Shown: positions 313 to 62,730, numbered from the stretch's first letter. The stretch: DNA of 64,000 bases from an uncultured Candidatus Cloacimonadota bacterium (GCA_964398885.1 CAYNOU010000002.1:22762-86761); one strand, 5' to 3'. Numbers and translations are program-made. The notes: generated by a model from the sequence alone, not told the origin.

Positions 313-425
313 AGATTTCCTTTATAGTAATTTCTTTTAAATATCAATTTTATTCAAGTAAAAAAAATGTTTATTTCTGCGAGGTTGCGAAGTGCAACTT
401 TGAGTTAGGAAACCTTGATATACTT

Positions 426-2273
426 TTATTTAAAATCCGCTTCATAATATTTTTCAATACTACTTTTACCACACTCAAATTCTTCAATAATTGAAGTAAT
501 AGTAAATAATACATCAAGTTCTTGTTTACCATGCTTACTACAATTATCAGTTATATTTTTCAACTCTGAATATGATAAATACTCAAGGATCGATTTACAA
601 TCAATTGTCTGCTTTTGGATGCACCTAATTAAATTTGAGTTATGTTTATATGCACTTTTATATTCGACTTTCTTTCTAATTTTCAACATAATTTTCGGAT
701 AATTAGAAATAATCTTGGATAAGCAGCTTATTAAATATCGTTTAATCCTATATCTAATGGATGATATTGGTAAAGCTAAATTTGCCTCTATAATCCTAGA
801 CATTTTGGGAGATAACTTAATTAACATTTCACGGTATAAACGATTATTAATTTTTTGCTTTTCCGGGCAATTTATAGCATAAATAAAAAAGGGTGTTGAC
901 TCAAGAGGTGTTCTAACCCAGAAAAAAAATCTATTGCGGTCTATTCCTTCATAATGCCAATTAAAACATCTACTATAAATAACAAAGTGCTCATATTTCC
1001 CTTGTAGACTTTTTTCAGGGTATGATAAGAGATTTCTTTTTATCTCACCTTCAATTTCTTCTTTAGTAATCCGAGTTAAATTTTCAACTTCATTTATACT
1101 AATCATCGAATGCTTAGATATAATAAACTCAATAAGATGATTTATGTCTTTAATTCTTTTCGGCAAATTATGAGATCTTAGACAAAGACCTGTATCACCA
1201 GTAAAGTACGTGACTTTATTTCCAAAGTCTTTTTTTATTTGTCTGAAAAAAGGTAGAATAAAACTCATAAATAAATAGTTCATACCCCTTTTAATATCAA
1301 GTAATTTTATAAAATCCTTACCTTTGGGTGAACTAAGGGGAAATAAATGCCAATCAATATTCAATGAACTTGCCACTTTCTCTGCAATTTCTGTATCAAG
1401 TTTAAAAACTTTATCGAAATCAAGGTATGTAACGCCTGAAAATGGAATTGAGCATTTTCTTAATGCGGCAGCAACAATTCTTGAATCTAATCCTCCACTT
1501 AAAGATAATACATTAACAAAATTATCTTCAGTATTACTTTTATTGCCGCAAGTTGCATTGAGTAATGATATTAAATTTGTAACATTTTTATTAATTGTAT
1601 TTCTACAATGTGTTTTGCAATCAAAATTTAATTGATAAATATTCTTAATTTCAAAATGTGATTCTAAAGAGTTAATCTTTATTAAAGAAGAAGGTTCTAA
1701 ACGAAAAATGTTGTTAAATAATGTTTCTTTCCCTAATGTATAACTAAATAACAAATAATTCGCTAATGATATTTTATTAAAATTTTCCTTTTTGATAAAA
1801 TTTGCAATAAATTTTATTTCTCTTGAGATATATATTTCTGATTTGTTTTTATAATAATATAAAGGCAAATGACCTAAGGCATCATTTAAAAATGCAACTT
1901 CATATGATTTTTTATCTAAAATAAATATAATAAATTCACCATCAGTATTTAACAACCAATCTGAAATTTGCTTATTTGTATTAGTCTGATTCTGAAAAAT
2001 TAGTTCCGATAATTCATTTAACTCTGATTTTATAGTCTGATAGTCTTTCCCATATATTTTACCTTCAAGATAAATACAATATTTATTGGTTTCAAAAGAA
2101 ATAATTGGATATTCTTTATATTTTGTATAGCCTAAAAAATAGAACTTTTTTTTTAAAAGAATCTTTCGTTTATATTCCTCAAAATGAATCAGTGAATCTA
2201 ATGATTGTAAAATTATAGATTCTTTCTTTGAAATATCTTCTGTAAAATCATAGATAAAACTTAATCCTGGCAT
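426..2273 (-). CDS. Asparagine synthetase (AsnB)-family amidotransferase-like protein with a PP-loop ATP pyrophosphatase domain. It has no N-terminal catalytic Cys.
   Basis: 615 aa ORF with the SLSGGLDSRIVAAAL motif (SGGxDS PP-loop). The N-terminus is MPGLSF, not the MCG of a class II glutamine amidotransferase. It sits in polysaccharide-locus context. Confidence 0.65.
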   Translation of the reverse strand: MPGLSFIYDFTEDISKKESIILQSLDSLIHFEEYKRKILLKKKFYFLGYTKYKEYPIISFETNKYCIYLEGKIYGKDYQTIKSELNELSELIFQNQTNTNKQISDWLLNTDGEFIIFILDKKSYEVAFLNDALGHLPLYYYKNKSEIYISREIKFIANFIKKENFNKISLANYLLFSYTLGKETLFNNIFRLEPSSLIKINSLESHFEIKNIYQLNFDCKTHCRNTINKNVTNLISLLNATCGNKSNTEDNFVNVLSLSGGLDSRIVAAALRKCSIPFSGVTYLDFDKVFKLDTEIAEKVASSLNIDWHLFPLSSPKGKDFIKLLDIKRGMNYLFMSFILPFFRQIKKDFGNKVTYFTGDTGLCLRSHNLPKRIKDINHLIEFIISKHSMISINEVENLTRITKEEIEGEIKRNLLSYPEKSLQGKYEHFVIYSRCFNWHYEGIDRNRFFFWVRTPLESTPFFIYAINCPEKQKINNRLYREMLIKLSPKMSRIIEANLALPISSIRYRIKRYLISCLSKIISNYPKIMLKIRKKVEYKSAYKHNSNLIRCIQKQTIDCKSILEYLSYSELKNITDNCSKHGKQELDVLFTITSIIEEFECGKSSIEKYYEADFK

Positions 2274-2357: not shown

Positions 2358-4256
2358 TCATGTATTGAATAATATTTTTACTATCTTATTAGCAATAGAT
2401 TCAGGGTCTAATCCCTGCACTTTATATACTTCTTCATTTTTTCCAGAGACTCCATATCGTGTAACACCAAATTTTACTAATTTGCATTGAATTCCATATT
2501 CAACTAATTTTTCAGAAACAATGCTTCCCAAACCGGTATTCACATTATGGTCTTCATAAGTAAAGATATAACCTGTGGAAGCTGCACTTTCTAAATCTTC
2601 TTTGCAAATATCAGAAACGCATGATAGATTCCAAACTGAGATATTAATTCTTTTACTTTTTAAGATTTCATATACTTTTAATGCTTTTTCAACCATCCCC
2701 CCGGTAGAAATTATCGTTGCATCATTTCCAGACCTAAGTCGGTCTGCTTTACCATAACAAAATTGATAATTGTTACTGTAAAAAACTTCATTATTTTCAT
2801 CTAAAATAATTTCAGTTTTGGAACGTCCAAGTGGTACGAAAAAGTTACCATTTTCAGATGCAATATATCTTATAATCTTATCAGTTTGGTTCGCATCTGC
2901 AGGAATAATTATTTTAAATCCAAAGAGATTACGCATCACACCAATATAATCAATGCATTGATGAGTTTTGCCATCCTCACCTACATCTAAACCAACATGA
3001 GTAGTAATCAATTTCAGATTGGTATGATTAATATCATTCAATCTCTGCTGGTTATAAGTCTCGTCTACACCAAAGACACCAAAATCAGAGTAAAAAGTTA
3101 TAATGCCTTCTTTAGACATAGCACCTGCAATTACTGCTGTGTTATGCTCTTGAATTCCACCTTGATAAAAGTTGTCGGGATTCTCTTTTGCAAATTTATT
3201 AGTTTTGACGGAGCCAGCAAGATCACAATCAAAAACTGCGAAATCAACTATATCTTTGTTTACTCGGACTAAATCAGCTAAAGCATTTCCATAAGCATCA
3301 CGATTTGCAACCTTTTTATCCTTATCATATATTTTTGGCTTGCCTTTTTGAACATTTTGTTTGCTTTTTTCTTCGGGATTGTTTGGGGGAATAATAAAAC
3401 TTTCCCTTAAATTTTTATATTTATCCAAATCATTTTTTACATTCAATTCATTCAAGGCTTTTTCACATTGAGACTCATTTAAAGCTTTTCCGTGGAACTG
3501 TGCATCATTTTCCATAAAAGAAACTCCTTTACCCATAACAGTATGTGCTAATATTGCAACAGGAGAATCTTTATAGGAATTCGCTCTTTCTAACGCAGAA
3601 AAAATTTGGCGAAAATCATGACCATCAATTTCAACCACTTCCCAGCCATCTGAGAGATAATTCTCCTTGATATTTTGGGGCATTACATTGCAAATTTTTC
3701 CACTTATCTGAAGTTTGTTATAATCAATTAGCACAGTGATGTTATTAAGACCGTATTTTCTTACAAATCTTCGTGCTTCTGATATTTGACCTTTTTGCTG
3801 TTCACCGTCCCCCATAGCCACAAAAACATTGTATTGAAGTCCTCGTTGCTTTCCTGCTAAAGCAAATCCGCATCCTGCAGAAAGTCCCTGTCCTAAATTG
3901 CCGGTTGCCCATTCAATACCGGGCACACTTGGCTCAACATGTCCTTCAAATATGCTTCCCGCTTTCCTGAAATAAGCAATAGCGTCATCAATATTAAAAA
4001 ATCCGAATCGTCCTAAAACAGAGTAAATTCCAGGAGCAGTATGCCCATGACTGATAACAATCCTATCACGATGTATATCTTTGAGATTATTGGGAGATAT
4101 GTTTGCAAAAGAATATAATGCAAGATATAAATCTAAAGAAGACACTGAGCCACCTGGATGGCCACTCTGAGCTAATGTAGTCATTTTCAGTATATCACCT
4201 TTACAAATGTGACTTAATTCATTTAATTCAGCTAAATCGAGTTTATTTTTTTTCAT
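2358..4256 (-). CDS. tkt: Transketolase.
   Basis: HPGGSVSSLDLYLALY, GHTAPGIYSVLG and MGDGEQQKGQISEA motifs are typical of TPP-dependent transketolase. The start is set at the internal ATG (MKKNKLDLAELN) at 4254-4256. The stop is TGA at 2358-2360. Confidence 0.85.
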   Translation of the reverse strand: MKKNKLDLAELNELSHICKGDILKMTTLAQSGHPGGSVSSLDLYLALYSFANISPNNLKDIHRDRIVISHGHTAPGIYSVLGRFGFFNIDDAIAYFRKAGSIFEGHVEPSVPGIEWATGNLGQGLSAGCGFALAGKQRGLQYNVFVAMGDGEQQKGQISEARRFVRKYGLNNITVLIDYNKLQISGKICNVMPQNIKENYLSDGWEVVEIDGHDFRQIFSALERANSYKDSPVAILAHTVMGKGVSFMENDAQFHGKALNESQCEKALNELNVKNDLDKYKNLRESFIIPPNNPEEKSKQNVQKGKPKIYDKDKKVANRDAYGNALADLVRVNKDIVDFAVFDCDLAGSVKTNKFAKENPDNFYQGGIQEHNTAVIAGAMSKEGIITFYSDFGVFGVDETYNQQRLNDINHTNLKLITTHVGLDVGEDGKTHQCIDYIGVMRNLFGFKIIIPADANQTDKIIRYIASENGNFFVPLGRSKTEIILDENNEVFYSNNYQFCYGKADRLRSGNDATIISTGGMVEKALKVYEILKSKRINISVWNLSCVSDICKEDLESAASTGYIFTYEDHNVNTGLGSIVSEKLVEYGIQCKLVKFGVTRYGVSGKNEEVYKVQGLDPESIANKIVKILFNT

Positions 4257-4378
4257 ATGAAAATCCTTTCTAACCACAAAGACACGAAGGTACAAAGATA
4301 AATGTAAAATTACGAATTACAAGTACATTGCGCTGATTCTAACACCATTTTTAATGGTGTTTTAATAAACAGTCCGCT

Positions 4379-8998: not shown

Positions 8999-9066
8999 AA
9001 TAAAAATTTATAAAAATTTGTAAAAATTCATAAAGACTTTTAAAGATTCATAAAGATTTATTATTC

Positions 9067-9591: not shown

Positions 9592-9593
9592 TT

Positions 9594-9621: not shown

Positions 9622-9729
9622 ACAACCACTAGAATCTAATTTACTTTTTATAATATTTAATCATATCTGTGTTTATCTGTCCACCCTCCGTAGCATTGCT
9701 ATTGCGGAAGACGGGTGTAAATCTGTGGC

Positions 9730-10689
9730 TTATTTTTTGTAATATTCTATAATCTCTTTTAGGATATTATCCAGAGGAACTTTTGGTTCAAATCCTATAT
9801 CTTTTTTGGCTTTTGATATGTCAGGAACACGACGCCTCATATCTTCAAATCCCTCTTCATAAGCTTCATTATAAGGGATGAGCTTTATTACGGATAAACT
9901 ATTTGTTAGCTTTTTAATCTTTTTAGCAAGGTCCATAATAGTTATCTCTTTGTCTGAGCCTATATTATAGACTTCTCCAATGCATTTCTCTTCATTCATC
10001 AATTTAACTAACGCATTTACAATATCTCCAACATAGGTAAAGCAGCGAGATTGTTTGCCATCACCATAAACTGTTATAGGATGACCAAGCAGAGCCTGTT
10101 GAACAAACCTGGGGACGACCATTCCATATTGTCCTGTTTGACGAGGCCCGATGGTATTAAATAATCTTCCAATAACAACCGGAAGCTTCTTTTCGTGCCA
10201 ATATGCTAATGCCAAAAACTCATCAATTGCCTTTGCCTCTGCATAAGACCATCTGCGAATATTTGTAGAACCGTAAATTCTATCAGTGCCTTCCTTAAAT
10301 GGTAAAGAATTGGCTTTCCCGTATACCTCTGATGTGGATGCAATAAAAATCTTCTTTTTATACTGATTAGCTAACTGAATCATTATCTCGGTTCCGGCAA
10401 CATTCGTTTCAATGGTTTGAACGGGGTTATCCACAATAAAGCGAACCCCAACCGCAGCTGCTAAATGATAAACCTGCTCGCAATTTTTTATCAAGCTGTC
10501 CATCAGTTTTTTGTTGAAAATTGTATCAATATGGATTTCCAAATTTTCATTTCTATAAATTTGTCTGATGTTTGCCAATCTGCCTGTTGAAAGATTGTCA
10601 ACAATAGTAACCTGATGACCATTCTTAAGCAAATATTCAGCTAAATATGAACCTATAAACCCTGAGCCGCCTGTGATTAAAATTTTCAT
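9730..10689 (-). CDS. NAD-dependent epimerase/dehydratase (SDR family; UDP-sugar 4-epimerase or UDP-glucuronate decarboxylase-like).
   Basis: N-terminal Rossmann fold MKILITGGSGFIGSYLAEYL and the catalytic YAEAK (YxxxK). Confidence 0.75.
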   Translation of the reverse strand: MKILITGGSGFIGSYLAEYLLKNGHQVTIVDNLSTGRLANIRQIYRNENLEIHIDTIFNKKLMDSLIKNCEQVYHLAAAVGVRFIVDNPVQTIETNVAGTEIMIQLANQYKKKIFIASTSEVYGKANSLPFKEGTDRIYGSTNIRRWSYAEAKAIDEFLALAYWHEKKLPVVIGRLFNTIGPRQTGQYGMVVPRFVQQALLGHPITVYGDGKQSRCFTYVGDIVNALVKLMNEEKCIGEVYNIGSDKEITIMDLAKKIKKLTNSLSVIKLIPYNEAYEEGFEDMRRRVPDISKAKKDIGFEPKVPLDNILKEIIEYYKK

Positions 10690-16997: not shown

Positions 16998-19519
16998 CTA
17001 TCTTATTATAATCATCTTCTTTATTTCATTGTAACTCTCAGTTTTCAGTTGATAAAAGTAAATACCATTAGAAAGTGGACTACCATTTTCATCTTTTCCA
17101 TCCCAGATGATATTAGTCATTTGACATTGATTATTAGTCATTTGGTAAAGAGTTCTCACCAACTGACCTTTTATATTATAGATTTTTATATTTGATAATC
17201 TATGTAAACCTGGGGCTAAAAAGGAAATAGTAGTGGAAGTGCTAAAAGGATTAGGATAATTCTGATATAATAATATATCTGATGAAGATGTATAGAAATC
17301 ATCAATACCTTCCCCTTGCCATTCATAACAACCCATATCAACAATACTATTATATATTCTTGGATTTCCATCCAAATCAAATGGTGGTAGATTAAGACCT
17401 GTTGTATCAGGATTACCAGCATCAATACAGGGAGAATCATAATATAAATGATAATTGCTATTTAGTGTATCTACAAACTGCGGGTCAACAAACAAGTTAT
17501 AATAGATGTCGCATGAATCCTCATTTGCATTGACCGTAACAATTACTCCGAAATATGGGGGCACTCCAAAACCATTTATATCATTTTGCCAAAATAGATT
17601 ATATTCCAAAGTAGTAAGGATAGAATCCGCATAAATCCCATAACCATAATCTTCTCCATTATTACTAAAAACTATATTGTTTAAAATATTAGGAGAAGAT
17701 GAATTGGTTCTAATTCCATATCCATAACCATAACCATAACCACTATTACTAGAATGATACATACTCCCACCATCACCTTTCCCTGCATTATCACCTATCG
17801 TGTTATTATTTATAATTGGAGAAGAATTATTACAATTTATACCAAAGCCATATCCCTTACCCCCAGAACAATATCCCTCACCAATTCCACCATCTCCGCC
17901 ATTATCACTTATAATATTATCGTTAATACTTGGATAGGATGAATTAACACAGTATATTCCTGAACCATAACCATCTTCTGCAGGCCAACTTAAAGACTTA
18001 CCGGCATTACCACCATTTTTAATAATTGTATTATTACTAATATTCGGAGATGAATTATCACAATAGATTCCATATCCATTACCAGAACCACTTGATGGTG
18101 TCCTACTTTCACTACCATTACCATTATTATTGCTTATAATATTGAAACCATATCCTTTACTACCTAAAAACTGATAATAATAATCTCCACCTTCACCGCC
18201 ATTATTACCTATAATATTATTGTTAATATCTGGACAAGATGAATTTACACAGTATATTCCTGAGCCATAACCATCTCCAGGAGGATTTCCATCACCACCA
18301 TCACGACCATTATTAATTATTGTGTTATTGCTAATACTTGGAGAAGATGCATCACAATAAATCCCATAAGTTGCATATTCAACTTTAGAGTATGAGATTA
18401 AACTATTGGAAGAAGAATTCCCTTCAAATTTAATATGATTCCAATCGTTATGACGAGGTTCCTGTTCTCCTGAAGTAAAAAGAATAGAATCTGTTTCTGT
18501 TCCTTCCGCAAATAAGGTGCCATAAATAGTAAAAGAATAAAAACCCATAAACTTAATAGTAACACCATGTTCAATTATTAAAGTATCACTGAAATTAACA
18601 GAAATATCACCAACTACATTGTATGTTTCACCTGTTGACCAAATACCACTTTGTGAGCCTATTACTTCAAGGCTGAGTGTTACATTAGCAAGCGTTGTAT
18701 CTTCAACAAATTCAATTTCCTCAGGAATAGTATAAGGTTCCCAACCTTCATGAGAATAATGAACAGTATAAATTCCTGCTGAAAGCATAATAGCAAATGA
18801 GCCATCTTCATTTGTAAAGGTGCTGTCTGTTGTTGCTGAAGGATTTACACCAGAAAATAGAACTTTTGTTCCTAAATGATTGCTCATTCCTGCTAAATAG
18901 CAGAAGCCATCAACAGTAATACAATCATGATTTAGTGTAATTCCCGTTAATGTTGTATCTTCAAGAAGTTCAATTTCACCAGGAATAGTATAAGATTCCC
19001 AATACTTATGAGAATATTGCACAGTATAAGTTCCCGAAGAAATCTCTATAGCAAATGAGCCATCTTCATTTGTAAAGGTGCTGTCTGTAAAAGCAGGTGG
19101 AGATACTGCATTGAACAATACCTTTGTTCCTGAATGGTCACTCATTCCTGCTAAATAGCAGAAGCCATCAATGGTAACATCAACACTATAGAGGGTAATG
19201 TCTGGCAAAGTAGTATCTTCAAAAAATGCAATTTGACCAGGTATAGTATAGGATCCCCAACCTTCATGGGAATAATGTACAGTATAAATTCCTTCTGAAA
19301 GCACTATAGCAAATGAGCCATCTTCATTTGTAAAGGTGCTATCTGTAACAGCGGAAGGACTAACAGCATATAAAAGAGAACCTTGGTTCCCGAATGGTCG
19401 CTCATTCCTGCTAAATAGCAGAAGCCATCAACAGTAACTGACCGTGTTTGTGCCATTGCATTATTACCAATAATTAAAGGTAATAATAGCAAGAATGTTA
19501 GAATTACAATTTTTTTCAT
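16998..19519 (-). pseudogene. T9SS-sorted secreted protein with three CarboxypepD_reg-like repeats and beta-helix repeats. It is disrupted by a frameshift near 19370-19385, which separates the signal peptide.
   Basis: The 71-aa ORF (19304..19519) carries the signal peptide plus the first GFCYLAGMSDHSGTKVLF repeat. The 768-aa ORF continues in another frame with the same repeat twice more, NNxI beta-helix repeats, and a C-terminal NYPNPF...KKMIIIR sorting domain. The three repeats are near-identical at DNA level, so an assembly artifact is possible. Confidence 0.55.
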
Positions 19520-27870: not shown

Positions 27871-28977
27871 CTAATCTATTTTATTCCTTCTGATATTGTC
27901 ACCAGCAATAATAGTCGTAATCTCTAAAAAGAGTGTTATAAAGAGAGCGAAGAAGACTATCATCTTTCTTTTTGGTTTATTTTTCTTCTCTGGTCTTACA
28001 GCTTTATCCAAAACCTGCACCGTAGGAACATCTTTAGCTTCTTCGATTTTTGCCTGCTCATATTGGGGACCTAAATATTCTAAAAGTTTAGCATAATATT
28101 CTGCTTTTCTTTTAAGTTGTAAATATTCCTTCTGCATATCTGGAATTTTATCAAAATTGAGAAAGAGTTTCTCTGACGAAGCTTCTGAATAAAATTCATT
28201 AAACTTTTTCCGTAAAATCACCAACTCGCTCTCTAATGATCCTACTTCAGGACTTTTTATACTAAGCACTCTTTTTTTAACTTCCAATTCAACCTCTTTT
28301 GCCATAATTCCAGCTTTCATATCTGCTGCTTTTTCTACAGCTGTTTTCATCTGGTCAGAAATGCTTATTATACCTTTTTTCTGCATAAACATACTAATTT
28401 CATTTTCCAATTTATTTAGACTATCCCTTACAATTTCTATTCTATTCTCAATAAATTCTCTGCTGCTTTTTGCTTTGCTGGCTGTTAATGTTATATTTAA
28501 ATTGTCTAAACAATAAACAATATAATTTGCCATATCAGCCACTATATCCTGGTCTTTATCCAATATTGAAACAACAATCTGCTCTTCTTCTTCAACCTTT
28601 ATATTTATTTTTCCCCGCAATGCTTTTATAGTACTTTCCAAGTTTTTTGTTTTGTATCGTTTCTGTAAATCAAATTTCTTATTCATTGCTTCTAATAAAG
28701 TTCTACTCTTCAAAATTGCTAAGAATCTCATCTGGCTTTCGCTTCCACCAAACATACCACCCAATCCAAATGCACCCAGATTAGCACTTATTCCAGCCAA
28801 TTTGCTTTCCTCTGTCTCGGGGGGCATAATAACAGCAGTTGCTTTATACCATTTGGGCAGAAGCAGGCTAATAATCACAGATAATACCGTAACAATGGTA
28901 ACAGTAATGATAATAAATTTTCTCTTTTTCCAGATTATATTCCAATAATCAATTAAGTTAATTTCTTTTTCTTGCAT
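27871..28977 (-). CDS. wzz: Polysaccharide chain-length determinant protein (Wzz/PCP family, no kinase domain).
   Basis: N-terminal ...LIDYWNIIWKKRKFII + TM + coiled-coil region + C-terminal TM (MIVFFALFITLFLEITTII). Confidence 0.65.
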   Translation of the reverse strand: MQEKEINLIDYWNIIWKKRKFIIITVTIVTVLSVIISLLLPKWYKATAVIMPPETEESKLAGISANLGAFGLGGMFGGSESQMRFLAILKSRTLLEAMNKKFDLQKRYKTKNLESTIKALRGKINIKVEEEEQIVVSILDKDQDIVADMANYIVYCLDNLNITLTASKAKSSREFIENRIEIVRDSLNKLENEISMFMQKKGIISISDQMKTAVEKAADMKAGIMAKEVELEVKKRVLSIKSPEVGSLESELVILRKKFNEFYSEASSEKLFLNFDKIPDMQKEYLQLKRKAEYYAKLLEYLGPQYEQAKIEEAKDVPTVQVLDKAVRPEKKNKPKRKMIVFFALFITLFLEITTIIAGDNIRRNKID

Positions 28978-28991
28978 ATTACCTCTTTATT

Positions 28992-29020
28992 TTGCCACAG
29001 AGACACAAAGACACAGAGAA
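28992..29020. repeat. Repeat family B, TTGCCACAGAGACAC...ACAGAGA, upstream of the wzz start.
   Basis: ttgccacagagacacaaagacacagagaa. The same module recurs at 34378-34411 and 39619-39683, and in a TTGCCACGAA variant at 39376 and 59052. Confidence 0.6.
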
Positions 29021-29246
29021 AAAATTATTTAAAATAACTTTGCGATTTCTGCGACTTTGCGGTGAGAGAGTTCACCCTATCGTCTTTCATACAAGACGAT
29101 ATCCTGTCATTATCGTCTTATATACTTGCCAATAGAGAAGGGAACAATATTAAAATCGCAAACATAATTTCTTTTTCTTCCATAAATTCCTCACTTTTCT
29201 CATTCCCAAACTCAATTTGGAAATGAGAAATCTATATAGTTATCAT

Positions 29247-33109: not shown

Positions 33110-34366
33110 TTAATGAGAGTTGTTAAATACAACTCTTCCCTTTTTGATAAGCATCTCCACACAATTACTTCCAAGATGGTAAGGAAGATATTTATATGAA
33201 GGCATATCCATAATTAAAATATCTGCTTGTTTACCCACTTCAATTGAACCAATTTTATCACCTAATTCTAAGGAATAAGCAGCATTAATCGTAGATGCAG
33301 TAATGGCTTCAGAAGGCAGTAAACCCATTTCTATGCAAGCTAAACTAATTACGGTTTGCATAGAATCACAATGACAGGAGCCAGGATTAAAATCAGTAGC
33401 AAGAGCAATTGGCAATCCAGAGTCAGTCATTTTTCTGGCTGGAGCATATCTTTTCAGCCCTAAACTGAAAGTCGTGGCCGGAAGCAAAATTGGAATTACA
33501 TCTGCTTCTTTCAGCTTTTGAATTCCATTATCTAAAACAGCGACAAGGTGGTCAGCAGTAACTGCACCGATTTCTGCGGCAAGTTCTGCACCTCCGATTG
33601 GCTCTAATTCATCAGCATGCATACGAATCTTAAAGCCTAATTTTTTCGCTTCTGACAGAATTCTTCTGGATTGCTCAACATTAAAAACATGTTTCTCACA
33701 AAAAATATCACAATATTCGGCAAGATTTCGCTTTTTAACTTCCGGTAGCATTTCATCAATTAAAATCCTTATGTATTCTTCTTGATTGTTTTTATATTCT
33801 TCAGGAAATTCGTGTGCACCTAAAAAAGTGGGAATTATGTCCATTTCTGAGATTTTATCTATTTTCTGGATAGCTTCCAGCATTTTTATTTCTGACTCTA
33901 CGGAAAGTCCATATCCGCTTTTTGCTTCTATAGTGGTTGTTCCCATTTCAAGCATTTTAGTTATTCTCTTCAGACCGAGTTCTACCAGTTCTGCTTTTGA
34001 AGCTTTTCTGACATCATTTATACTTGAACGAATGCCACCACCGGATTGGGAAATTTCCTGGTAAGATTTTCCAAGAATGCGTATCTCAAACTCATTTTCA
34101 CGGGTTTTAACAAATATTGGATGAGTATGAGGGTCTACAAAACCAGGCATTACTACTTTTCCTGAAGCATCAATAACATTTTCGGAAATAAAATTTTCTG
34201 TAATTTCTTTTATAGTGCCAACCCCTGCTATTTTTTCACCAAGAACAGCAACAGCCCCATCTTGAATGATACCAAGATTTTGCATTTCAATACCAGTTTT
34301 GGGACTATCTGACTTAAGTGTCAATAGTTGATTTGCATTCTTGATTATTAAATCTGCTTTTTTCAT
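33110..34366 (-). CDS. hutI: Imidazolonepropionase.
   Basis: Amidohydrolase motifs VVMPGFVDPHTHPIF and IRMHADELEPIGGAELAAEIGAVTADHL. The start is placed at ATG 34364-34366 (MKKADLIIKN), because the upstream GTG lies inside the family-B repeat. Confidence 0.8.
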   Translation of the reverse strand: MKKADLIIKNANQLLTLKSDSPKTGIEMQNLGIIQDGAVAVLGEKIAGVGTIKEITENFISENVIDASGKVVMPGFVDPHTHPIFVKTRENEFEIRILGKSYQEISQSGGGIRSSINDVRKASKAELVELGLKRITKMLEMGTTTIEAKSGYGLSVESEIKMLEAIQKIDKISEMDIIPTFLGAHEFPEEYKNNQEEYIRILIDEMLPEVKKRNLAEYCDIFCEKHVFNVEQSRRILSEAKKLGFKIRMHADELEPIGGAELAAEIGAVTADHLVAVLDNGIQKLKEADVIPILLPATTFSLGLKRYAPARKMTDSGLPIALATDFNPGSCHCDSMQTVISLACIEMGLLPSEAITASTINAAYSLELGDKIGSIEVGKQADILIMDMPSYKYLPYHLGSNCVEMLIKKGRVVFNNSH

Positions 34367-34377
34367 ATTAAAAATTC

Positions 34378-34411
34378 TTTGCCACAGAGACACGGAGAAC
34401 ACAGAGATAAT
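34378..34411. repeat. Repeat family B copy upstream of hutI.
   Basis: tttgccacagagacacggagaacacagagataat. Confidence 0.6.
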
Positions 34412-34890: not shown

Positions 34891-35082
34891 TTTTTTATTT
34901 TAATTCGACGTAGAAAAACGCTGAATATGCTGAAAAACGCTGATGAAGACATATCTTTTTTCAATGATAATCAGTGGCTTTAGGCAGAGTTCTTCTGCCC
35001 GCTATTAAACGCAAACCATTGCGAAGGTCTGACGACCATTCGCAAGGTTTTGAAATCAGCGTTATCCTGCGTGCTATTATAT

Positions 35083-39362: not shown

Positions 39363-39555
39363 CTGAAAATAGCTTTTTTGCCACGAACCACACGAACTAA
39401 TCGGTCTCGGCCAGTCTTGGCTAGGCCAAGCCTAGACAGGCGCCCAGACGGACACGAACAATATTTTGTTCATAAAATTAAATCCGTTTAAAATTGTTTA
39501 CCCTGTGGAATAAAATCAAAGATTTTAATGCAAAGCATTATTCCACAGGGTGAAT

Positions 39556-39616
39556 AATTTTCATAATCCTTTGTGTCCGATTTGTTTTCGGGACATGTAT
39601 GTTTCATATGAAAATA
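39556..39616. repeat. About 60-bp direct repeat, copy 1, containing the hairpin gtccgatttgttttcgggac.
   Basis: aattttcataatcctttgtgtccgatttgttttcgggacatgtatgtttcatatgaaaat. A second copy lies at 39728-39785. Confidence 0.7.
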
Positions 39617-39618
39617 CC

Positions 39619-39683
39619 TTGCCACAGAGACACATCATGCCAGAGGCAGATCCGCCTTAGGCGGAGAGAACACAGAGATAATT
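39619..39683. repeat. Composite repeat: a family-B element (ttgccacagagacac ... agaacacagagataat) interrupted by a family-A palindrome (catgccagaggcagatccgccttaggcggag).
   Basis: Direct comparison with 28992-29020, 34378-34411, 4379-4396 and 9594-9621. Confidence 0.65.
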
Positions 39684-53544: not shown

Positions 53545-54597
53545 TTATCTCATAATCACCATTTTCTTAACTTGAGAATTTTCTACACCACCGAGTTTAT
53601 AAAAATAAATTCCATTCTGAACTGGTATTCCATTATCATCCAGTCCATTCCAACCAACTGAACCAGAGTCGTTTTCTATCAGTAAGTTGCTGAATCCTTT
53701 AACCTTTTGTCCTTTAACATTATAAATTACAATATCTGCTTTTTGGGCCTGTTTTCTATTTAATCTATAGGAAATCACTGTAGTTGAATTAAATGGGTTT
53801 GGATAGTTTTGAATTAGTTTATATTCAGTTGAACTGATTGAGGTTTCATCAACATCTACAAAGGGTTGAGTAAGATATGAAAGATAAGAAGACATCAGAG
53901 TTGCTTTTGTATTGGGTCTGGCACCATCAATCATTGCTCCCAGAAGTGATGATGTAAAAATTGTATGATATTGACCTTCTCCGTCATAACAAACTCCACG
54001 ACCTTTTTCGTCCTGAGAAATGAAAAAGAGTGTACCTTTATCAGCCCCAATCTCATCAACTGAATAATCGGAGTCAGAACCATATTGATAATTAAACTCG
54101 TAGTCTTCTGCAAATGTTCCATCTACCCCAAACAAACTCTGAACATTATAAGCATAACCATCACCATCGTAATTACAACCGAAATAGCTAAAAAGGTCAG
54201 TAAAATAATGATCAGAAGCAAAGTCTACGCCCTCAACATAAACAGCTTTACCAGAATTCAAAAAATCAACAAGCCTTTGTTGCTCGACCGAGCCAATTAC
54301 TCCAGGAGGAGTAGAACCTCACCCCAAACACCAATGACCAAGTGTAACAAATATCAGGTCGTAATTTGATAGGTCTGAAGGTAAGTAAGAAAAAGTGGCA
54401 TAACTTTCACCATTAGTCATCAAAGCCTGTTGTAAAGCATATTGACAACCAACATATCCTGCTCCTTCTGGATCATTTATATAAGAACCATTATCGTTAT
54501 CCCAAATTAAAATTTCTAGTCCTATGACAATTTGAGGTATAATAAATAACATTATTACGAAACACAAAATTATTGAATATTGTTTAATAATTTTCAT
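53545..54597 (-). pseudogene. T9SS-sorted secreted protein interrupted by a single in-frame TGA (54319-54321). It is either a pseudogene or sequencing error, or a selenocysteine codon in a CLG-U context.
   Basis: The 92-aa ORF has a signal peptide and the 238-aa ORF has the T9SS C-terminal sorting domain. They are in the same frame and separated only by TGA: ...GHWCLG*GSTPPGVIG... It is adjacent to the sel operon. Confidence 0.5.
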
Positions 54598-59002: not shown

Positions 59003-59188
59003 AATTTTTTACCGCGAATGTACGCTAATTTAAGCGAATATTTTTTCTTTGCCACGAATTTACCCCATGAAATCCTTCAAAGAAGGAATCCCAACACACC
59101 CGTTCTCCGTAGTCCCGATAAATCGGGACGAAGGATGAATCGGGATTATTTCACAGGGCAAGCACGAACTGGCACGAACATTTATGTA

Positions 59189-60577
59189 TCAATGTAAAAG
59201 GCATTTTTGTATTTCTTGTGATACATAATCTATATCTTCTTCATTAATTGTTAAAACATCAAAATGGATATTTCCTTCTCTGAGAATTCCAAGTATTGGC
59301 CTTTCTAAATGCAACAATTGTTTAAACAACTTTTCTGCAAAATTTTTCGTATTATCCTTGTTAATCAGCATTACTGAATAGCTATCTAATTTTAGACGAG
59401 GAAGGGTTCCTCCGCCACAATGTGCAATACTCTCTACTATTTCAGATTGTATATGAAATTTTGCTAACTCATTTTGTAATTTTTTTGCAATATTATAAAG
59501 CTCGGATTTACTTTTTTTTAGCATCCTATAAACAGGTATTTTTGTAAAAACATCTTCATCTTTAATATAATATCGCAACACTGTGGATAAAGCGGCAATA
59601 GTCATTTTACCCACTCGGAGTGCTCGCATAAGTGGAGCTTTTGAAAGTTTAGATATTAATTCCTTTTTACCTGCGATTATCCCTGCTTGAGGACCACCAA
59701 GTATTTTATCACAACTAAAAGTAACTAAATCTGTTCCGTAGTTTAGACTGGAAACAGCATCAGGTTCATTCCCAAAATGTAAATCTTTTTGTTTTCTTAT
59801 AAGTCCGGAGCCCAAATCATACATTAAAATCAGATTATATTTTCTTGCAAGCTTTGATAATTCTTTTAGTTCTACCTCTTCTGTAAAGCCTTCTATATAG
59901 TAATTTGATTTATGAACTTTTAAAATGATTCTTGTATCACCAGTAATTGCATTTTCATAATCTGATATTCTGGTTCTGTTTGTTGTGCCAACTTCAACCA
60001 TTTTTGCACCGCTTGCCTTCATTATATCAGGAATCCTGAAAGAACCACCAATTTCTATCAATTCTCCACGAGATATAATTGCTTCTTTATTTTCAGCAAA
60101 AGTTTTTAAACAGAGCAGGACTCCAGCGGCATTATTATTAACCACAACTGCATCTTCTGCTTTTGTAACAAATTTAATTAATTCTGAAATGTGTTTATTT
60201 CTCTGCCCTCTTTTACCTTTATCTAAATCAAATTCTAAATTAGAATATCCAAGTATGATTGGTTCTAATTCTTTTAGAACATCTTTACCAAGTGGAGCTC
60301 TTCCAAGATTTGTATGAAGTATAATTCCAGTTGCATTGACCATTGGTTTAAGTGATTTTTTGGTTATAGATTGGATAATAACTTTAATATCCTCAATAAT
60401 TTGGTTTAAGTTTTTTGCAGGCTTTGCTTTTAAAACATTTTTTCTATACTCATCCAAAATTTGTCTAATTGAATATGTAATCAAATCATTTCCAAATTTG
60501 TTTTTCAATTTCATTATTTCAGGATGATTTAATAATTTATCCACGCCGGGAATCTTTTTAAGTTCTTCTTTACACAT
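59189..60577 (-). CDS. selA: L-seryl-tRNA(Sec) selenium transferase (selenocysteine synthase).
   Basis: MCKEELKKIPGVDKLL...NATGIILHTNLGRAPL...NNNAAGVLL...RGELIEIGGSFRIPDIM...VGTTNRT are SelA hallmarks. The start is placed at ATG 60575-60577, because the track GTG lies inside a repeat. Confidence 0.85.
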   Translation of the reverse strand: MCKEELKKIPGVDKLLNHPEIMKLKNKFGNDLITYSIRQILDEYRKNVLKAKPAKNLNQIIEDIKVIIQSITKKSLKPMVNATGIILHTNLGRAPLGKDVLKELEPIILGYSNLEFDLDKGKRGQRNKHISELIKFVTKAEDAVVVNNNAAGVLLCLKTFAENKEAIISRGELIEIGGSFRIPDIMKASGAKMVEVGTTNRTRISDYENAITGDTRIILKVHKSNYYIEGFTEEVELKELSKLARKYNLILMYDLGSGLIRKQKDLHFGNEPDAVSSLNYGTDLVTFSCDKILGGPQAGIIAGKKELISKLSKAPLMRALRVGKMTIAALSTVLRYYIKDEDVFTKIPVYRMLKKSKSELYNIAKKLQNELAKFHIQSEIVESIAHCGGGTLPRLKLDSYSVMLINKDNTKNFAEKLFKQLLHLERPILGILREGNIHFDVLTINEEDIDYVSQEIQKCLLH

Positions 60578-60587
60578 AGTTAATCCT

Positions 60588-60648
60588 AAAAAATTTGCCA
60601 CAGATTTAGACCAATCAAAAAAATGATTACCTTTATTTCTGTGGCAAA
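60588..60648 (-). terminator. Hairpin (11-bp stem TTTGCCACAGA/TCTGTGGCAAA, about 32-nt loop) plus a U6 run between tRNA-Sec and the selA RBS. Terminator-like or a processing element.
   Basis: The minus strand reads tttgccacagaaataaaggtaatcatttttttgattggtctaaatctgtggcaaatttttt aggattaact ATG. It uses the family-B TTGCCACAGA motif as an inverted repeat. Confidence 0.4.
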
Positions 60649-60662
60649 CAATAAAATTATAA

Positions 60663-60795: not shown

Positions 60796-62730
60796 TTATC
60801 GCATTATCACCATTTTTCTTACCTGAGATTTTTCAGAATTAGAAATTTTATAGAAATATACACCATTGCTAACTGCATTTCCATTTGTATCTGTTCCATC
60901 CCAGACAATCTCACCATAATTTCCTTCAAAAGGAAGGTTATTAAATTCTTTTACAATATCACCTTTAATATTATAAATAATGATTTTTGATTTTCTACTC
61001 GGCTTTATGTTATAAGAAATATTTGTCTCGGAGTTAAATGGATTTGGAAAATTCTGCAGCAAGCCTGAATTGTTATTTATCGCAGAATCAACACTATGTG
61101 GTTGATCAAAATATAAAGCACCCATATCTGCAACAGTTCCATCAGGGTCTGGTGGAGAAGCTGGATCTCCTGCGTCAATACACGGAGAACCTTCTAATAA
61201 ACTCCAGGATGCTTCAAGACCATTGTAACTCGTTCCACTTCCTGCTGTTGGATTCTCAAACATTGGGTCTTCATTGATATTTCCAGTTCCACTATAACCA
61301 CCTGATATACAAGTATAGGTTACATAAACAGTACTACCAAATAGATTGAATACATCTAAGTCGTCAATTAGGATACAATTGTTAACTGTTGCAGAAGAAG
61401 ATGCAAACCACATTGCTCCATAACCATAGGTAGATTCATTATTTGCTATTGTGTTGTTAATCATAGTCGGGTTTGATGAGTTTTTTAAACTAATTGCACC
61501 AGCGAAACCTGCAGTATTATTAACGATTATATTATGAGAAATCAGAGGATTTGCATTATCACAAACAATTCCTGCACAAAGAATTGAACTTGTATTATTG
61601 GCTATTAGGTTTTTATAAATATACACACTATCTAAACCAATTACATTAATTGCTGCGCCTTTCTGGGTTGTAGTTAAATTCTCATAAATAGTGTTTTCAA
61701 TAATATCAACTTTTGAATTTTCAATATCTACTGCACAATAAGTGGCATTAGTTATTTCACAATTCTGAATAAGATTGTCTTCCATAGTATTAAAGAATTG
61801 AATACCTTTCCAACTATCATTTGATGTGAAAATTATAGGACCTTTTCCAGAAGCATCAGCAACTATTTTTCCTTCAACTTTTATCTTGCTATTATTATTT
61901 GTAATTATTTGAACATCAGGTTCAATAGTAAGTTCACAGCCATCTGGAATTGATACATCATCAGTGATAGTATAAGGGCTAAAAGCTGTATTCCAGACAC
62001 CAGCAACAGTTCCCGAAATATTATTACTATTAGTAACAGTGATGTAGTCCTCTTGAGTAATACTTGCACTATCAGCACCACTCCAAACAGTTAGAGATAC
62101 ATCATAAGATCCAACATCAGTATAAAGGAAAAATGGATTTTCTTCGTTACTGTCAATTAAGCCATCACCATCAAGATCCCAAGCCCATGTATCTGCACTA
62201 CCCGCTGTACTATGGAATTGAACTCCTAATGAAGGAGGTCCTGTTTGTATACTTGCATCAAATCCTGCCATTAATCCTAAAGATGCAATCGCATCATCTA
62301 AATATGTTGAGAAATTTACATTATTCTCACCATAATATAGTTGATATTCACCACCAATAACTGCAAAGAATGGTACATAGCCATTACCATAATCCCAATA
62401 TAAAGAGCTAATATCAGAAGAATGATAAAATGTACAATTATAAGGTGGAATACTCCAATCATTTTCAGATAGGAAGTAAACATGTCCACCGGGGTTATAT
62501 GTTTGCCACATAGCTTCTAATTGCGGCGCCGCCGCAACACAGCCACCTCAACTATAACCTCCCCAGAAAAAGACTACCGCTTTTTCTGCGTTGATCAATT
62601 CATATATTGAATGCGGTGCTCCAGTATTATCAGTCCAACTAAAATCATCTACAACATCGCCTACTTGGTATACTGCAAACAATGAACTTGCAAATACCAA
62701 AAATGCGAAAAGGGTAATTGCTTTTTTCAT
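60796..62730 (-). CDS. Candidate selenoprotein. Order of domains: signal peptide, thioredoxin/TlpA-like redoxin domain with a U-x-x-C motif (Sec at the in-frame TGA 62548-62550), PKD-like domain, beta-helix repeats, T9SS C-terminal sorting domain.
   Basis: The signal-peptide ORF and the 571-aa ORF are in the same frame and separated only by TGA: ...EKAVVFFWGGYS-U-GGCVAAAPQLEAMWQTY..., a redoxin pattern with FW..xCxxC. A SECIS-like hairpin starts 10 nt downstream. sel genes lie immediately downstream. The C-terminus FPNPFNSE...KMVIMR is a T9SS sorting domain. Confidence 0.6.
62521..62537 (-). promoter_or_regulatory. Putative bacterial SECIS element: GC-rich hairpin 10 nt 3' of the in-frame UGA.
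   Basis: Plus strand ttgcggcgccgccgcaa (8-bp inverted repeat). The mRNA reads UGA GGUGGCUGUG UUGCGGCGGCGCCGCAA. It is a conspicuous 100% GC core in a roughly 30% GC genome. Confidence 0.45.

What the first reader, a model, noticed from the sequence alone, without database searches (positions are those of the whole stretch)
28992..29020. Repeat family B: TTGCCACAGAGACAC...ACAGAGA(TAAT) immediately upstream of start codons
On the coding (minus) strand the copies read ...TCTCTGTG(T/G)..CTCTGTGGCAAA and end 8-25 nt before the ATGs of wzz (28977) and hutI (34366). The variant GTGGCAAA / TTCGTGGCAAA lies upstream of ispD (39362), selB (59002) and selA (60577). An inverted pair TTGCCACAGA...TCTGTGGCAA lies between tRNA-Sec and selA. 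A candidate shared operator or 5'-UTR element. Separately noted: the motif ATTTCTGCGA..TTGCG recurs at 375-392 and 29044-29060.
Basis: seen in the sequence. Interest (0 to 1): 0.5.

Follow-up and report, generated by a model that had tools for sequence, protein, structure and literature searches.

The report
Leftover arms of small nuclease cassettes
The repeat is real. It is not a shared gene switch but the end-piece ("arm") of a small selfish-looking gene cassette, found in many bacterial phyla, that wedges itself between the stop of one gene and the start of the next; the copies in this window have lost the cassette gene.

Summary
TCTGTGGCAA occurs 5 times exactly against 0.14 expected.

The organism is a Cloacimonadota bacterium. 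The same grammar, CTYYGYG units plus a GG-Y-R-A tail, occurs in at least a dozen phyla. It is typically found as tail-outward inverted pairs (33 against 4 tail-inward).

About 80% of GxxExxY genes are bracketed by such arms. These genes encode a 122-aa PD-(D/E)XK nuclease (PF13366, TIGR04256). The cassettes sit tightly between a stop codon and the next start codon. Left and right arms co-vary.

A relative carries this cassette with family-B arms. Another carries a four-helix-bundle (23S-IVS protein) cassette at exactly the window's wzz site, which is empty (15-18 nt) in two further relatives.

The solo hutI copy evolves neutrally: 66% identity against 67% at third codon positions. Arms beside intact GxxExxY genes are conserved (85% against 55%).

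A shared operator is therefore not supported. These are ORF-less remnants of an IVS-like or REPIN-like cassette family. How the cassettes move, and whether their RNA is processed, was not tested.

The parts
28990..29019 (-). Family-B right arm: TCTCTGTG TCTTTGTG TCTCTGTG GCAAAA. The GGCAA end lies 14 nt before the wzz ATG (28977), and the SD sequence AAAGAGG follows.
29038..29069 (+). Partner (left) arm of the copy above, with a different word: CTTTGCG ATTTCTGCG ACTTTGCG GTGAGAGA on the + strand. Together with an 18-nt AT-rich spacer it forms a tail-outward, ORF-less hairpin element.
   Evidence: Fold of 28975-29085 (-): -26.1 kcal/mol, z = -2.7. Coordinates.
34377..34407 (-). Solo family-B arm: TCTCTGTG TTCTCCGTG TCTCTGTG GCAAAG. 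It occupies the 47-nt gap between the ispF stop (34414) and the hutI ATG (34366).
   Evidence: Unstructured (-5.6 kcal/mol, z = -1.2). Evolves neutrally.
39617..39679 (-). Family-B arm split by a 32-nt GC-rich hairpin insert (39634-39665). The halves are ATCTCTGTGTTCTC and GTGTCTCTGTGGCAAGG. It is not next to a gene start.
39373..39459 (-). TTCGTG-word arm: GTTCGTGT, then a GC-rich insert, then TTAGTTCGTGTGGTTCGTGGCAAAAAAG. It ends 15 nt before the ispD ATG (39362).
   Evidence: Absent from the ispD upstream regions of L124, L126 and L127.
59047..59179 (-). TTCGTG-word units (GTTCGTGCCAGTTCGTGC ... AAATTCGTGGCAAAG) enclosing a long nested hairpin, upstream of selB.
   Evidence: Fold -60 kcal/mol, z = -5.9. 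Coordinates.
59005..59028 (-). TTCGCG-word arm TTAGCGTACATTCGCGGTAAAAAA, ending directly before the selB ATG (59002).
60592..60651 (-). Mini ORF-less element between tRNA-Sec and selA: TTGTTTGCCACAGAAAT, a 27-nt spacer, then AAATCTGTGGCAAATT. It forms a 12-bp stem, and the right arm ends 17 nt before the selA ATG (60577).
4269..4297 (-). Arm CTTTGTA CCTTCGTG TCTTTGTG GTTAGA. The SD sequence AAAGGA follows, then the ATG at 4255 of a transketolase-like gene.
9665..9729 (+). Copy in left-arm orientation relative to the minus-strand genes. On the minus strand GCCACAGATTTACAC directly follows the TAA stop of gene 9730..10689. It is split by a GC-rich hairpin, with ACAGATAAACACAGAT on the other side of the insert.
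373..398 (+). Left-arm-orientation copy with a GCG word. The minus strand reads GTTGCACTTCGCAACCTCGCAGAAAT, about 25 nt after the stop of gene 426..2273.

Best explanation
Family B is the terminal inverted-repeat arm of a widespread small gene cassette.

Structure of the complete element (shown):
- It starts just after the stop codon of an upstream gene.
- Left arm: TT(T/A)GCC-(ACAGAG-N)x2-4.
- 5-30 nt later comes the ATG of a roughly 122-aa GxxExxY protein. This is a minimal PD-(D/E)XK, Cas4-like nuclease core with the D...ExK residues kept.
- 0-50 nt after its stop comes the right arm: (N-CTCTGTG)x2-4-GGC(A/T)AA.
- The right arm ends roughly 5-35 nt before the ATG of the downstream gene.
- Other 'words' obey the same grammar: CTCTGCG with a GGTGA tail, CTTCGTG, CTTTGCG, TTCGTG. 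In each case the left arm carries the matching complement.

Other forms (shown): ORF-less versions consist of two arms around an 11-140-nt loop. Solo arms are also common.

The window copies (shown): all are ORF-less hairpins or solo arms sitting in stop-to-start gaps of co-directional genes.

Inferred: cassettes insert, or only survive, in operon junctions, where they are co-transcribed with the host genes. The purine-rich left arm supplies an SD-like sequence for the cassette ORF, and the pyrimidine-rich right arm can pair with it. Loss of the ORF and of one arm leaves a right arm just upstream of a start codon, or a left arm just after a stop codon. The solo copies are then decaying relics with little or no regulatory role.

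Not shown: whether the nuclease mobilises or maintains the arms at the DNA level (like a transposase or homing enzyme), and whether the paired arms are cut in RNA by RNase III as in 23S rRNA intervening sequences.
For: 1. Cross-phylum family. The exact 15-mer GTGTCTCTGTGGCAA hit 119 or more stretches among species-representative genomes. In about 85% of hits it is preceded by another CTCT unit, so nearly all are family members rather than chance matches.

2. Defined architecture. There are 33 tail-outward pairs against 4 tail-inward. Spacers cluster at 11-43 nt, 77-142 nt and about 390-410 nt. All three pairs of the last class enclose a GxxExxY ORF.

3. Association with GxxExxY. Six of the 119 motif-selected loci have a GxxExxY gene directly next to the motif. 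The protein matches TIGR04256 and PF13366.

4. The converse association. Of 82 GxxExxY genes, mostly from a metagenome scan, 64 have flanking inverted repeats above the 95th percentile of shuffles, and 49 exceed the shuffle maximum. In 66 of 81 there are at least 3 CTYYGYG units in the flanks, against 0.5% of control windows.

5. The arms co-vary. Over 37 cassettes, 87% of cells are paired against 73% in shuffles (0 of 500 shuffles reach this). There are 150 double-change cells against 59, and slid controls give 34-52%.

6. Wedged in operon junctions. The right-arm end is within -12 to +34 nt of the next start in 42 of 51 cases. The previous stop is within -5 to +12 nt of the left-arm end in 26 of 43. 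Real gene calls agree in L220, L219, L127 and L209.

7. Same lineage as the window. Cloacimonadota relatives carry a family-B-armed GxxExxY cassette. It is intact in L219 and a pseudogene in L049.

8. Filled and empty sites. A four-helix-bundle cassette sits at exactly the window's SLBB-to-wzz site in L127, while L124 and L126 have 15-18-nt empty sites there.

9. Relic behaviour of solo arms. The hutI arm is 66% identical between lineages, against 67% at hutI third codon positions. Arms are interrupted by other palindromes.

10. Constraint where the ORF is intact. The terminal 22 nt of the arm is 85% identical across six Verrucomicrobia loci, against 55% at trpC third positions.

Against: - No GxxExxY or four-helix-bundle gene lies in the 64-kb window itself. 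The link therefore rests on relatives and on shared sequence grammar.
- No target-site duplication was seen. No near-identical copies at different loci were seen either (loops differ), so recent mobility is not demonstrated.
- Several cassettes are stably inherited at one site, such as the trpC site in six loci. That fits a domesticated gene as well as a mobile one.
- Mismatches between arms are symmetric: 79 of G.U type against 79 of A.C type. This gives no support for selection on pairing in the sense RNA, so the RNase III/IVS-like step is analogy only.
- In the cross-phylum sample, solo arms were not enriched before starts under a strict start definition: 1 of 38, against 9 of 52 for paired arms and 1.2% for random positions. 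The tight 'upstream of ATG' pattern is therefore not shown to be general for solo copies.
- The 80 metagenome loci were seeded with proteins taken from family-B cassettes. This biases the spectrum of words recovered.
Confidence: 0.72

Rival explanations
1. The hairpin repeats are the primary, independently spreading elements (like REPINs or MITEs). GxxExxY and four-helix-bundle genes are secondary. They would be either homing-endonuclease-type genes that copy themselves into the loops of these repeats, using the arms as cleavage site and as homology, or the trans-acting enzyme that spreads the repeats.
For: ORF-less pairs and solo arms far outnumber ORF-bearing ones. Two unrelated small genes occupy the same kind of arm-flanked slot. 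Arms are conserved where the nuclease gene is intact and decay where it is absent, as expected if the enzyme maintains them. The catalytic D...ExK residues are conserved and the fold is Cas4-like.
Against: Loops of ORF-less elements differ between loci, even within one genome, so there is no sign of recent bursts. The class of word correlates with the ORF family and, weakly, with GxxExxY phylogeny (56.4% against 53.7% identity, permutation p about 0.002). That fits arms and ORF descending together as one unit. No empty-versus-filled pair of the same hairpin was found.
Confidence: 0.3
2. The arms act at the RNA level. Paired arms would form a long stem around the cassette that RNase III cuts, as in 23S rRNA intervening sequences, releasing the downstream cistron with a short leader. 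Solo pyrimidine-rich arms would serve as unstructured ribosome standby or S1-binding tracts that help translation of the next gene.
For: The architecture matches the Coxiella and Leptospira IVS, where a small ORF sits between terminal repeats that form a 28-bp stem cut by RNase III (PMC4990558). One of the cassette genes belongs to the IVS protein family PF05635. The arms co-vary. Paired arms in the window fold well (z = -2.7 and -5.3), while the solo arm is unstructured. Copies sit on the coding strand 6-17 nt before ATGs.
Against: G.U-type and A.C-type mismatches between arms are equally frequent, 79 against 79, whereas selection on the sense RNA should favour G.U. The solo hutI arm evolves neutrally. 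Copies are absent at orthologous sites of relatives. There is no Rfam family. Cleavage was not tested.
Confidence: 0.2
3. The motif is a shared operator, or a promoter element such as the TGGCA of a sigma-54 site, that co-regulates wzz, hutI, ispD, selB and selA.
For: The motif recurs directly upstream of several start codons on the coding strand. It contains TGGCA.
Against: The genes are functionally unrelated. There is no TTGC 5 nt after TGGCA(C). No sense-strand sigma-70-like promoter and no terminator were found around copy 1. The 8-nt unit period does not match helical phasing. One copy sits in a 47-nt intercistronic gap. Copies are absent or decayed at orthologous sites. The same sequence occurs in genomes from 32% to 71% G+C across many phyla.
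Confidence: 0.03

Closest known systems
23S rRNA intervening sequences carrying an S23p (four-helix-bundle) ORF, as in Leptospira and Coxiella burnetii
   Same: Both are elements of about 430-480 nt made of one small ORF of about 115-125 aa bracketed by terminal inverted repeats that can form a long stem. ORF-less forms exist in both. Both have a scattered distribution suggestive of horizontal transfer. One cassette at the window's wzz site in relative L127 encodes the same protein family, PF05635/TIGR02436.
   Different: These elements sit in stop-to-start gaps of protein-coding operons, not in helices 25 or 45 of 23S rRNA. The usual ORF is a GxxExxY PD-(D/E)XK nuclease. The arms are built of tandem 7-10-nt units with a conserved GG-Y-R-A tail. 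RNase III excision was not tested, and the mismatch pattern gives no RNA-level signal.
REP/REPIN repeats and their RAYT transposase (comparison from my own knowledge; not checked here)
   Same: Both are short intergenic repeats that occur as singlets and as inverted doublets forming hairpins. In both, a small nuclease-type gene is itself flanked by the repeats, and the repeats are far more numerous than the gene.
   Different: The associated protein is a PD-(D/E)XK nuclease, not a Y1 HUH transposase. The repeat unit is not itself a palindrome and lacks the GTAG head. The same words recur across phyla instead of being lineage-specific.
Correia/NEMIS elements and other bacterial MITEs (comparison from my own knowledge)
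   Same: Both are small elements bounded by terminal inverted repeats. Both are inserted close to gene starts, co-transcribed with neighbouring genes and able to fold into hairpins.
   Different: No target-site duplication was seen. The loops are not conserved between copies. The arms consist of tandem sub-repeats. An ORF-bearing 'parent' is only about 450 nt long and encodes no recognisable transposase.
Cyanobacterial STRR (short tandemly repeated repetitive heptamers) (comparison from my own knowledge)
   Same: Both are tandem 7-8-nt units in intergenic DNA with variable copy number. The function of STRR is unknown.
   Different: STRR form long direct arrays and are not described as inverted arms around a small gene. 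A relationship between the two was not tested.

Membership tests
Transcription-factor operator / regulon motif | The motif lies upstream of functionally linked genes | tested here: not met
   The downstream genes are wzz, hutI, ispD, selB, selA and a transketolase-like gene.
Transcription-factor operator / regulon motif | The motif is conserved at orthologous upstream regions of relatives | tested here: not met
   It is absent before wzz and ispD in L124, L126 and L127. The hutI copy has diverged neutrally in L126.
Sigma-54 promoter | TGGCAC, then 5 nt, then TTGCW (GG and GC elements 10 nt apart) | tested here: not met
   TGGCAAAATAAAGAGG and TGGCAAAGAATTTTTA have no TTGC at the required spacing.
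Any curated RNA family (Rfam 15) | A covariance-model match at the gathering score | tested here: not met
   Only tRNA-Sec matched in the window. Only tRNAs matched in 18 loci carrying paired arms. Nothing better than E about 0.8 matched around copy 1.
IVS-type cassette (23S rRNA intervening sequence with ORF) | Terminal inverted repeats able to form a stem, with the repeat ends facing outward | tested here: met
   There are 33 tail-outward pairs against 4 tail-inward. The arms co-vary. Window pairs at 28990-29069 and 60592-60651 fold with z = -2.7 and -5.3.
IVS-type cassette (23S rRNA intervening sequence with ORF) | A small ORF (PF05635, or here PF13366) between the arms | tested here: not met
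   Not met for the window copies: tblastn finds no such ORF in the window. Met in relatives and in other phyla (L127, L219, L220, L043, L041 and 64 of 82 GxxExxY loci).
IVS-type cassette (23S rRNA intervening sequence with ORF) | Inserted in helix 25 or 45 of 23S rRNA | tested here: not met
   All copies examined lie between protein-coding genes or next to tRNA genes.
IVS-type cassette (23S rRNA intervening sequence with ORF) | Excised from the transcript by RNase III | not testable with these tools
   The only indirect test was whether G.U-type mismatches outnumber A.C-type ones between arms. They do not (79 against 79), so it gave no RNA-level signal.
MITE | Terminal inverted repeats plus a target-site duplication | tested here: inconclusive
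   Inverted repeats are present. No duplication is evident at the element borders or at the filled-versus-empty wzz site. The borders of that insertion are blurred by other repeats.
MITE | Many near-identical copies in one genome, including the internal sequence | tested here: not met
   Loops differ between copies, even within one Calditrichia MAG.
REPIN/RAYT system | A cognate Y1 (HUH) transposase gene flanked by the repeats, and a palindromic REP unit | tested here: not met
   The flanked gene has a PD-(D/E)XK fold. The units CTYYGYG are not palindromic.
   Window copies at 28990, 34377, 39373, 59005, 60592 and 4269 have the tail facing a start codon. Copies at 9715 and 373 have it facing a stop codon. 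The same layout is seen in 64 cassettes.

The most novel reading that the evidence does not exclude
Family B and its sister 'words' may mark an undescribed, cross-phylum class of genetic element. It would consist of a minimal Cas4-like PD-(D/E)XK nuclease (GxxExxY), or alternatively an Avd-like four-helix-bundle protein, bracketed by inverted arms made of tandem 7-10-nt units. It would be targeted to the stop-to-start junctions of operons, where the arms can even supply the host's stop and start codons. Large populations of ORF-less hairpins and solo arms would be non-autonomous derivatives maintained by the nuclease. This would be a PD-(D/E)XK counterpart of the REPIN-RAYT system and a non-ribosomal sibling of rRNA intervening sequences.
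Probability: 0.35. Interest if true: 0.8.

Novelty: new variant of a known kind. Interest (0 to 1): 0.6.

Why it matters
These short GYG-periodic repeats account for many of the larger intergenic spaces in this Cloacimonadota window, and they recur in genomes from Acidobacteriota to Leptospiraceae. Recognising them as cassette arms has three consequences.

- It stops them being mistaken for operators, promoters or riboswitch-like leaders.
- It corrects gene starts. Several ORF calls begin falsely at the GTG inside ...CTGTGGCAAA.
- It gives a concrete context to two very large protein families of unknown function, GxxExxY (PF13366) and the 23S-IVS four-helix-bundle family (PF05635).

If the nuclease really maintains or moves the arms, this would be a new, experimentally tractable type of minimal mobile or homing element. 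It would also offer an explanation of where rRNA intervening sequences come from.

Tried and rejected
- Rfam at gathering score on the window and on 18 loci, and at E up to 1 around copy 1. Only tRNAs matched.
- Sigma-70 promoter and intrinsic terminator scan around copy 1. There was no sense-strand promoter upstream of wzz and no terminator.
- Sigma-54 reading of TGGCA. Rejected on spacing.
- Anti-SD idea, in which CUCU pairs with the SD. In copy 1 only a 5-bp pairing is predicted. The other words (TTCGTG, TTCGCG) cannot do this.
- Resemblances recalled from memory: DnaA box, NusB/E boxA, the consensus RNAP pause G-10/Y-1/G+1, cold-shock-protein heptamers. They were noted as leads, not tested, and none explains the inverted-pair architecture or the link to the ORF.
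- RNA-level selection test (G.U against A.C mismatches). The result was symmetric, so uninformative or negative.
- Literature searches for the repeat strings: no relevant paper. 'GxxExxY', PF13366 and the TIGR numbers appear in only about five papers, and none is about repeats.
- Looking up the window's Wzz protein by exact sequence: not on record.
- Four-helix-bundle query against viral contigs: one marginal hit.
- Family-B pattern in viral contigs: 13 hits. Ten look real and 3 are identical coding-sequence matches that look like chance. None is next to a GxxExxY gene, so phages are not an obvious vector.
- A first, loose test for starts downstream of arms was invalid. Its random control was inflated by in-gene start codons. 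It was replaced by a strict test.
- PADLOC: only faint Cas4 similarity and no match to a known defence system.
- PDB search by sequence: nothing.

Full report
OBSERVATION. The sequence is as described. Window 28992-29019 (+) is TTGCCACAGAGACACAAAGACACAGAGA. Nearly all genes lie on the minus strand, and there it reads TCTCTGTG-TCTTTGTG-TCTCTGTG-GCAAAA. It is followed by AATAAAGAGGTAAT and the ATG (28977) of a Wzz-domain gene.

A second copy at 34377-34407 nearly fills the 47-nt gap between the ispF stop and the hutI ATG at 34366. A third, at 39617-39679, is the same sequence split by a 32-nt GC-rich hairpin.

Exact TCTGTGGCAA occurs 5 times against 0.14 expected, with 0 of 100 shuffles reaching 5. 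With one mismatch allowed there are 11 matches against 3.35 expected. The one-mismatch hits are in coding sequence or tRNA-Sec and look like chance.

The TTCGTG and TTCGCG variants stand before ispD, selB and selA as stated. The true selA start is ATG 60577, not the GTG inside the repeat. The inverted pair next to tRNA-Sec folds into a 12-bp stem (-22.3 kcal/mol, z = -5.3).

The 'separately noted' ATTTCTGCGA..TTGCG motif follows the same grammar. At 29038-29069 it is the partner arm of copy 1, and the pair folds at -26.1 kcal/mol, z = -2.7.

A generic detector of tandem NNNGYG units finds 6 intergenic and 7 coding clusters on the minus strand, although intergenic DNA is 12% of the window. Five of the six intergenic clusters end 6-17 nt before an ATG.

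ORGANISM AND DISTRIBUTION. HutI homologues place the window in Candidatus Cloacimonadota. A 100%-identical protein occurs in JGI metagenomes.

The carriers include Acidobacteriota, Chloroflexota, Calditrichia, Leptospiraceae, Geobacteraceae, Cloacimonadota, Nitrospinota, Verrucomicrobiota, KSB1, Latescibacterota and others, with G+C from 0.32 to 0.71.

A 15-mer is expected about 1,100 times by chance in that collection (my arithmetic). However, in 85-87% of the hits the four bases upstream are CTCT, which is a further unit. Almost all hits are therefore true family members.

The consensus is a T-rich stretch, then (N-CTCTGTG)x2-3, then GCAA(A). About a third of the copies have an inverted partner within 120 nt. 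The orientation of pairs is not random: 33 are tail-outward against 4 tail-inward. Spacers cluster at 11-43, 77-142 and about 390-410 nt.

LINK TO A GENE. All three pairs of the 390-410-nt class enclose a 122-128-aa ORF. In total six of the 119 loci have this ORF directly beside the motif. It is a 'GxxExxY protein' (TIGR04256, E = 1e-44; PF13366 PDDEXK_3, E = 6e-43).

The converse also holds. A metagenome scan with an alignment of four such proteins returned 80 loci. Of 82 genes, 64 have flanking inverted repeats above the 95th percentile of shuffled flanks, and 49 exceed the shuffle maximum. In 66 of 81 there are at least 3 CTYYGYG units in the two 130-nt flanks, against 0.5% of 580 control windows.

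The words differ between cassettes, and each left arm carries the complement of its right arm:
- CACAGAG with CTCTGTG
- CGCAGAG with CTCTGCG
- CACGAAG with CTTCGTG
- CGCAAAG with CTTTGCG
- tails TTGCC with GGCAA, TCACC with GGTGA, and TTAGCC with GGCTAA.

On 37 cassettes, 87.1% of cells pair against 73.1% in shuffles (0 of 500). There are 150 double-sided changes against 59 (0 of 500). Slid registers give 34-52%.

The cassettes are wedged into operon junctions. The right arm ends within -12 to +34 nt of the next start in 42 of 51 cases. The left arm begins within -5 to +12 nt of the previous stop in 26 of 43 (ORF calling here was crude). Real gene calls show the same layout in L220 (carA, then the cassette, then an ABC transporter gene) and in L219.

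The tails often contain the host's stop codon (TAA/TAG/TGA-GCC...). In six Verrucomicrobia loci the GTG of ...CTGTGGCAAA appears to be the trpC start.

THE WINDOW'S OWN LINEAGE. Three syntenic relatives with 86-88% HutI identity were fetched.

The SLBB-to-wzz junction varies between lineages:
- L124: TAA-15 nt-ATG
- L126: TAA-18 nt-ATG
- the window: 269 nt, ending in the family-B arm
- L127: 538 nt, containing a 115-aa four-helix-bundle gene.

That gene matches PF05635 (the 23S rRNA-IVS protein family) and TIGR02436. It is flanked by inverted arrays of a different word, AGTCAGAAAGG with CCTTTCCGACT.

The 908-nt spacer before ispD in the window is 119-122 nt, or absent, in the relatives. These copies are therefore lineage-specific insertions.

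The MAG that gave L127 also holds a family-B-armed GxxExxY cassette, L049. It is a pseudogene with at least 2 frameshifts, one caused by an inserted GTCCCGATTAAATCGGGA mini-palindrome. An intact orthologue at the same site, L219, shows TAA|GCCACAGAGGCACCGAGAACACAGAGAAA|ATG.

CONSTRAINT. The solo arm before hutI is shared with L126 in degenerate form. Its core is 19 of 29 identical (66%). That equals the 67% identity at third codon positions of the adjacent hutI, whose protein is 88% identical. This is neutral decay and argues against an operator or leader function.

In contrast, at the trpC site of six Verrucomicrobia loci with intact GxxExxY, the terminal 22 nt of the right arm are 85% identical pairwise. 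trpC third positions there are 55% identical, and first plus second positions 88%. Something therefore maintains the arms while the gene is alive. Part of that stretch may code for the first residues of TrpC.

MECHANISM.

Shown:
- the architecture of the cassettes
- the co-variation of the arms
- their position in operon junctions
- gain and loss between relatives
- neutral decay of a solo copy

Inferred:
- Cassettes are co-transcribed with host operons.
- The purine-rich left arm offers an SD-like sequence 5-15 nt before the cassette ATG, and the right arm can pair with it.
- Loss of the ORF leaves hairpins or solo arms.

Not shown: how the element moves.
- Mismatches between arms are exactly symmetric, 79 of G.U type against 79 of A.C type. 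There is thus no sign of selection on the sense RNA. A DNA-level role (terminal repeats, cruciform or homing homology) is at least as likely as IVS-like RNase III processing.
- No target duplication and no near-identical dispersed copies were seen.
- In the cross-phylum sample a strict test found starts within 35 nt downstream of 9 of 52 paired right arms. The figure was 1 of 38 for solo arms and 1.2% for random positions.
- Six of ten real-looking copies on viral contigs do precede an ATG. The start-proximal position is therefore solid for cassettes, for paired arms and for this window, and uncertain for solo arms in general.

COMPARISON. The closest described thing is the ORF-bearing 23S rRNA intervening sequence. 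In Coxiella it is a 428-444-nt element whose S23p (four-helix-bundle) ORF lies between terminal repeats forming a 28-bp stem cut by RNase III. Its origin and mobility are unresolved (PMC4990558).

The elements here share that build and one of its protein families. They differ in four ways. They sit in mRNA operon junctions. They mostly carry a PD-(D/E)XK nuclease. Their arms are made of tandem units. They leave many ORF-less derivatives, in the manner of REPINs with their RAYT gene or of MITEs (comparisons from my own knowledge).

PF13366 is listed as 'function unknown, multiple transfers' (PMC3424549). I found no paper mentioning these repeat strings or their link to GxxExxY.

VERDICT. The operator or regulatory-leader interpretation is not supported. 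The window copies are best read as ORF-less remnants of an IVS-like, GxxExxY-type cassette family. The family itself appears under-described and is worth a dedicated study.

Noticed in passing
window 62548-62550 (ORF from ATG 62730 into 60796..62511) and window ~54319 (ORF from ATG 54597 into 53545..54261), minus strand: Two ORFs read through a single in-frame TGA inside redox-type motifs: ..FFWGGYS-TGA-GGC.. and ..GHWCLG-TGA-GST... They lie within a few kb of tRNA-Sec, selA and selB, so they are candidate selenoproteins whose ORF calls are truncated at the TGA.
   Followed up: partly
window ~59095-59115, ~39880-39900 and 39560-39580; L124 9111-9398; L127 9187-9399 and 1893-2543; L049 inside the GxxExxY ORF: A separate family of GC-rich mini-palindromes, (G)TCCCGAT(T/A)(T/A)ATCGGGA(C), is scattered through the intergenic regions of these Cloacimonadota. 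It is often nested in a larger hairpin, GGAGTGCTGAAACGA...GAACTTTCAGCA. One copy has inserted into, and frameshifted, a GxxExxY gene.
   Followed up: partly
window 9596-9623; 4370-4410; 39634-39665; L124 2314-2629: Another repeat: CCGCCAGAGGCGGATCCGCCTCTGGCGG and its relative GGATCTGCCTCTGGCATGA. One copy splits the family-B arm at 39617-39679.
   Followed up: no
L209 1421-1493 and 1842-2378; L213 (Marinimicrobia/Fidelibacterota): A four-helix-bundle (PF05635) gene is flanked on both sides by direct arrays of GACTTTCN units. The downstream array is 537 nt long and differs in unit number between samples (VNTR-like). A family-B mini-arm, TTCTCTGTGATCTCTGTGGCTA, is embedded in it. Proteins of this family that are 70-80% identical are labelled Marinimicrobia, Patescibacteria and Bacteroidota, which suggests recent horizontal transfer.
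   Followed up: partly
L154, L160, L157, L190, L206: Cassettes and ORF-less hairpins also occur head-to-tail in arrays: a right arm is followed within about 10-20 nt by the next left arm.
   Followed up: no
window 34904-34945 and 35052-35066 (minus strand), upstream of ispF; L124 8511-8636: A further word of the same grammar: CATCAGCG TTTTTCAGCA TATTCAGCG TTTTTCTACG TCGAA, ending 13 nt before the ispF ATG. An inverted CGCTGAT partner lies about 110 nt upstream. A homologous copy stands before ispF in L124.
   Followed up: no
window 33110..34402, 59189..60601 and 2358..4295 (mechanical ORF calls): Three ORFs are over-extended at the 5' end. Two begin at a GTG in or next to a repeat arm, and the third begins at a TTG inside an arm. 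The likely true starts are ATG 34366, 60577 and 4255. Automatic annotation of such genomes may make the same error.
   Followed up: yes
window 17049-17107, 52364-52422, 53596-53654, 60847-60905, 62928-62986; 18694-19467: Five minus-strand genes share a conserved stretch of about 59 nt near their 3' ends. This may be a common C-terminal sorting domain. Gene 16998..19304 contains three 258-nt tandem repeats.
   Followed up: no
window 9520-9595 and 8999-9066: AT-rich tandem arrays fill two intergenic spacers: TTGAATTGGTTGAA-type units of about 11 nt in the first, and CTTTATGAAT/TTTTTATAAA units in the second.
   Followed up: no
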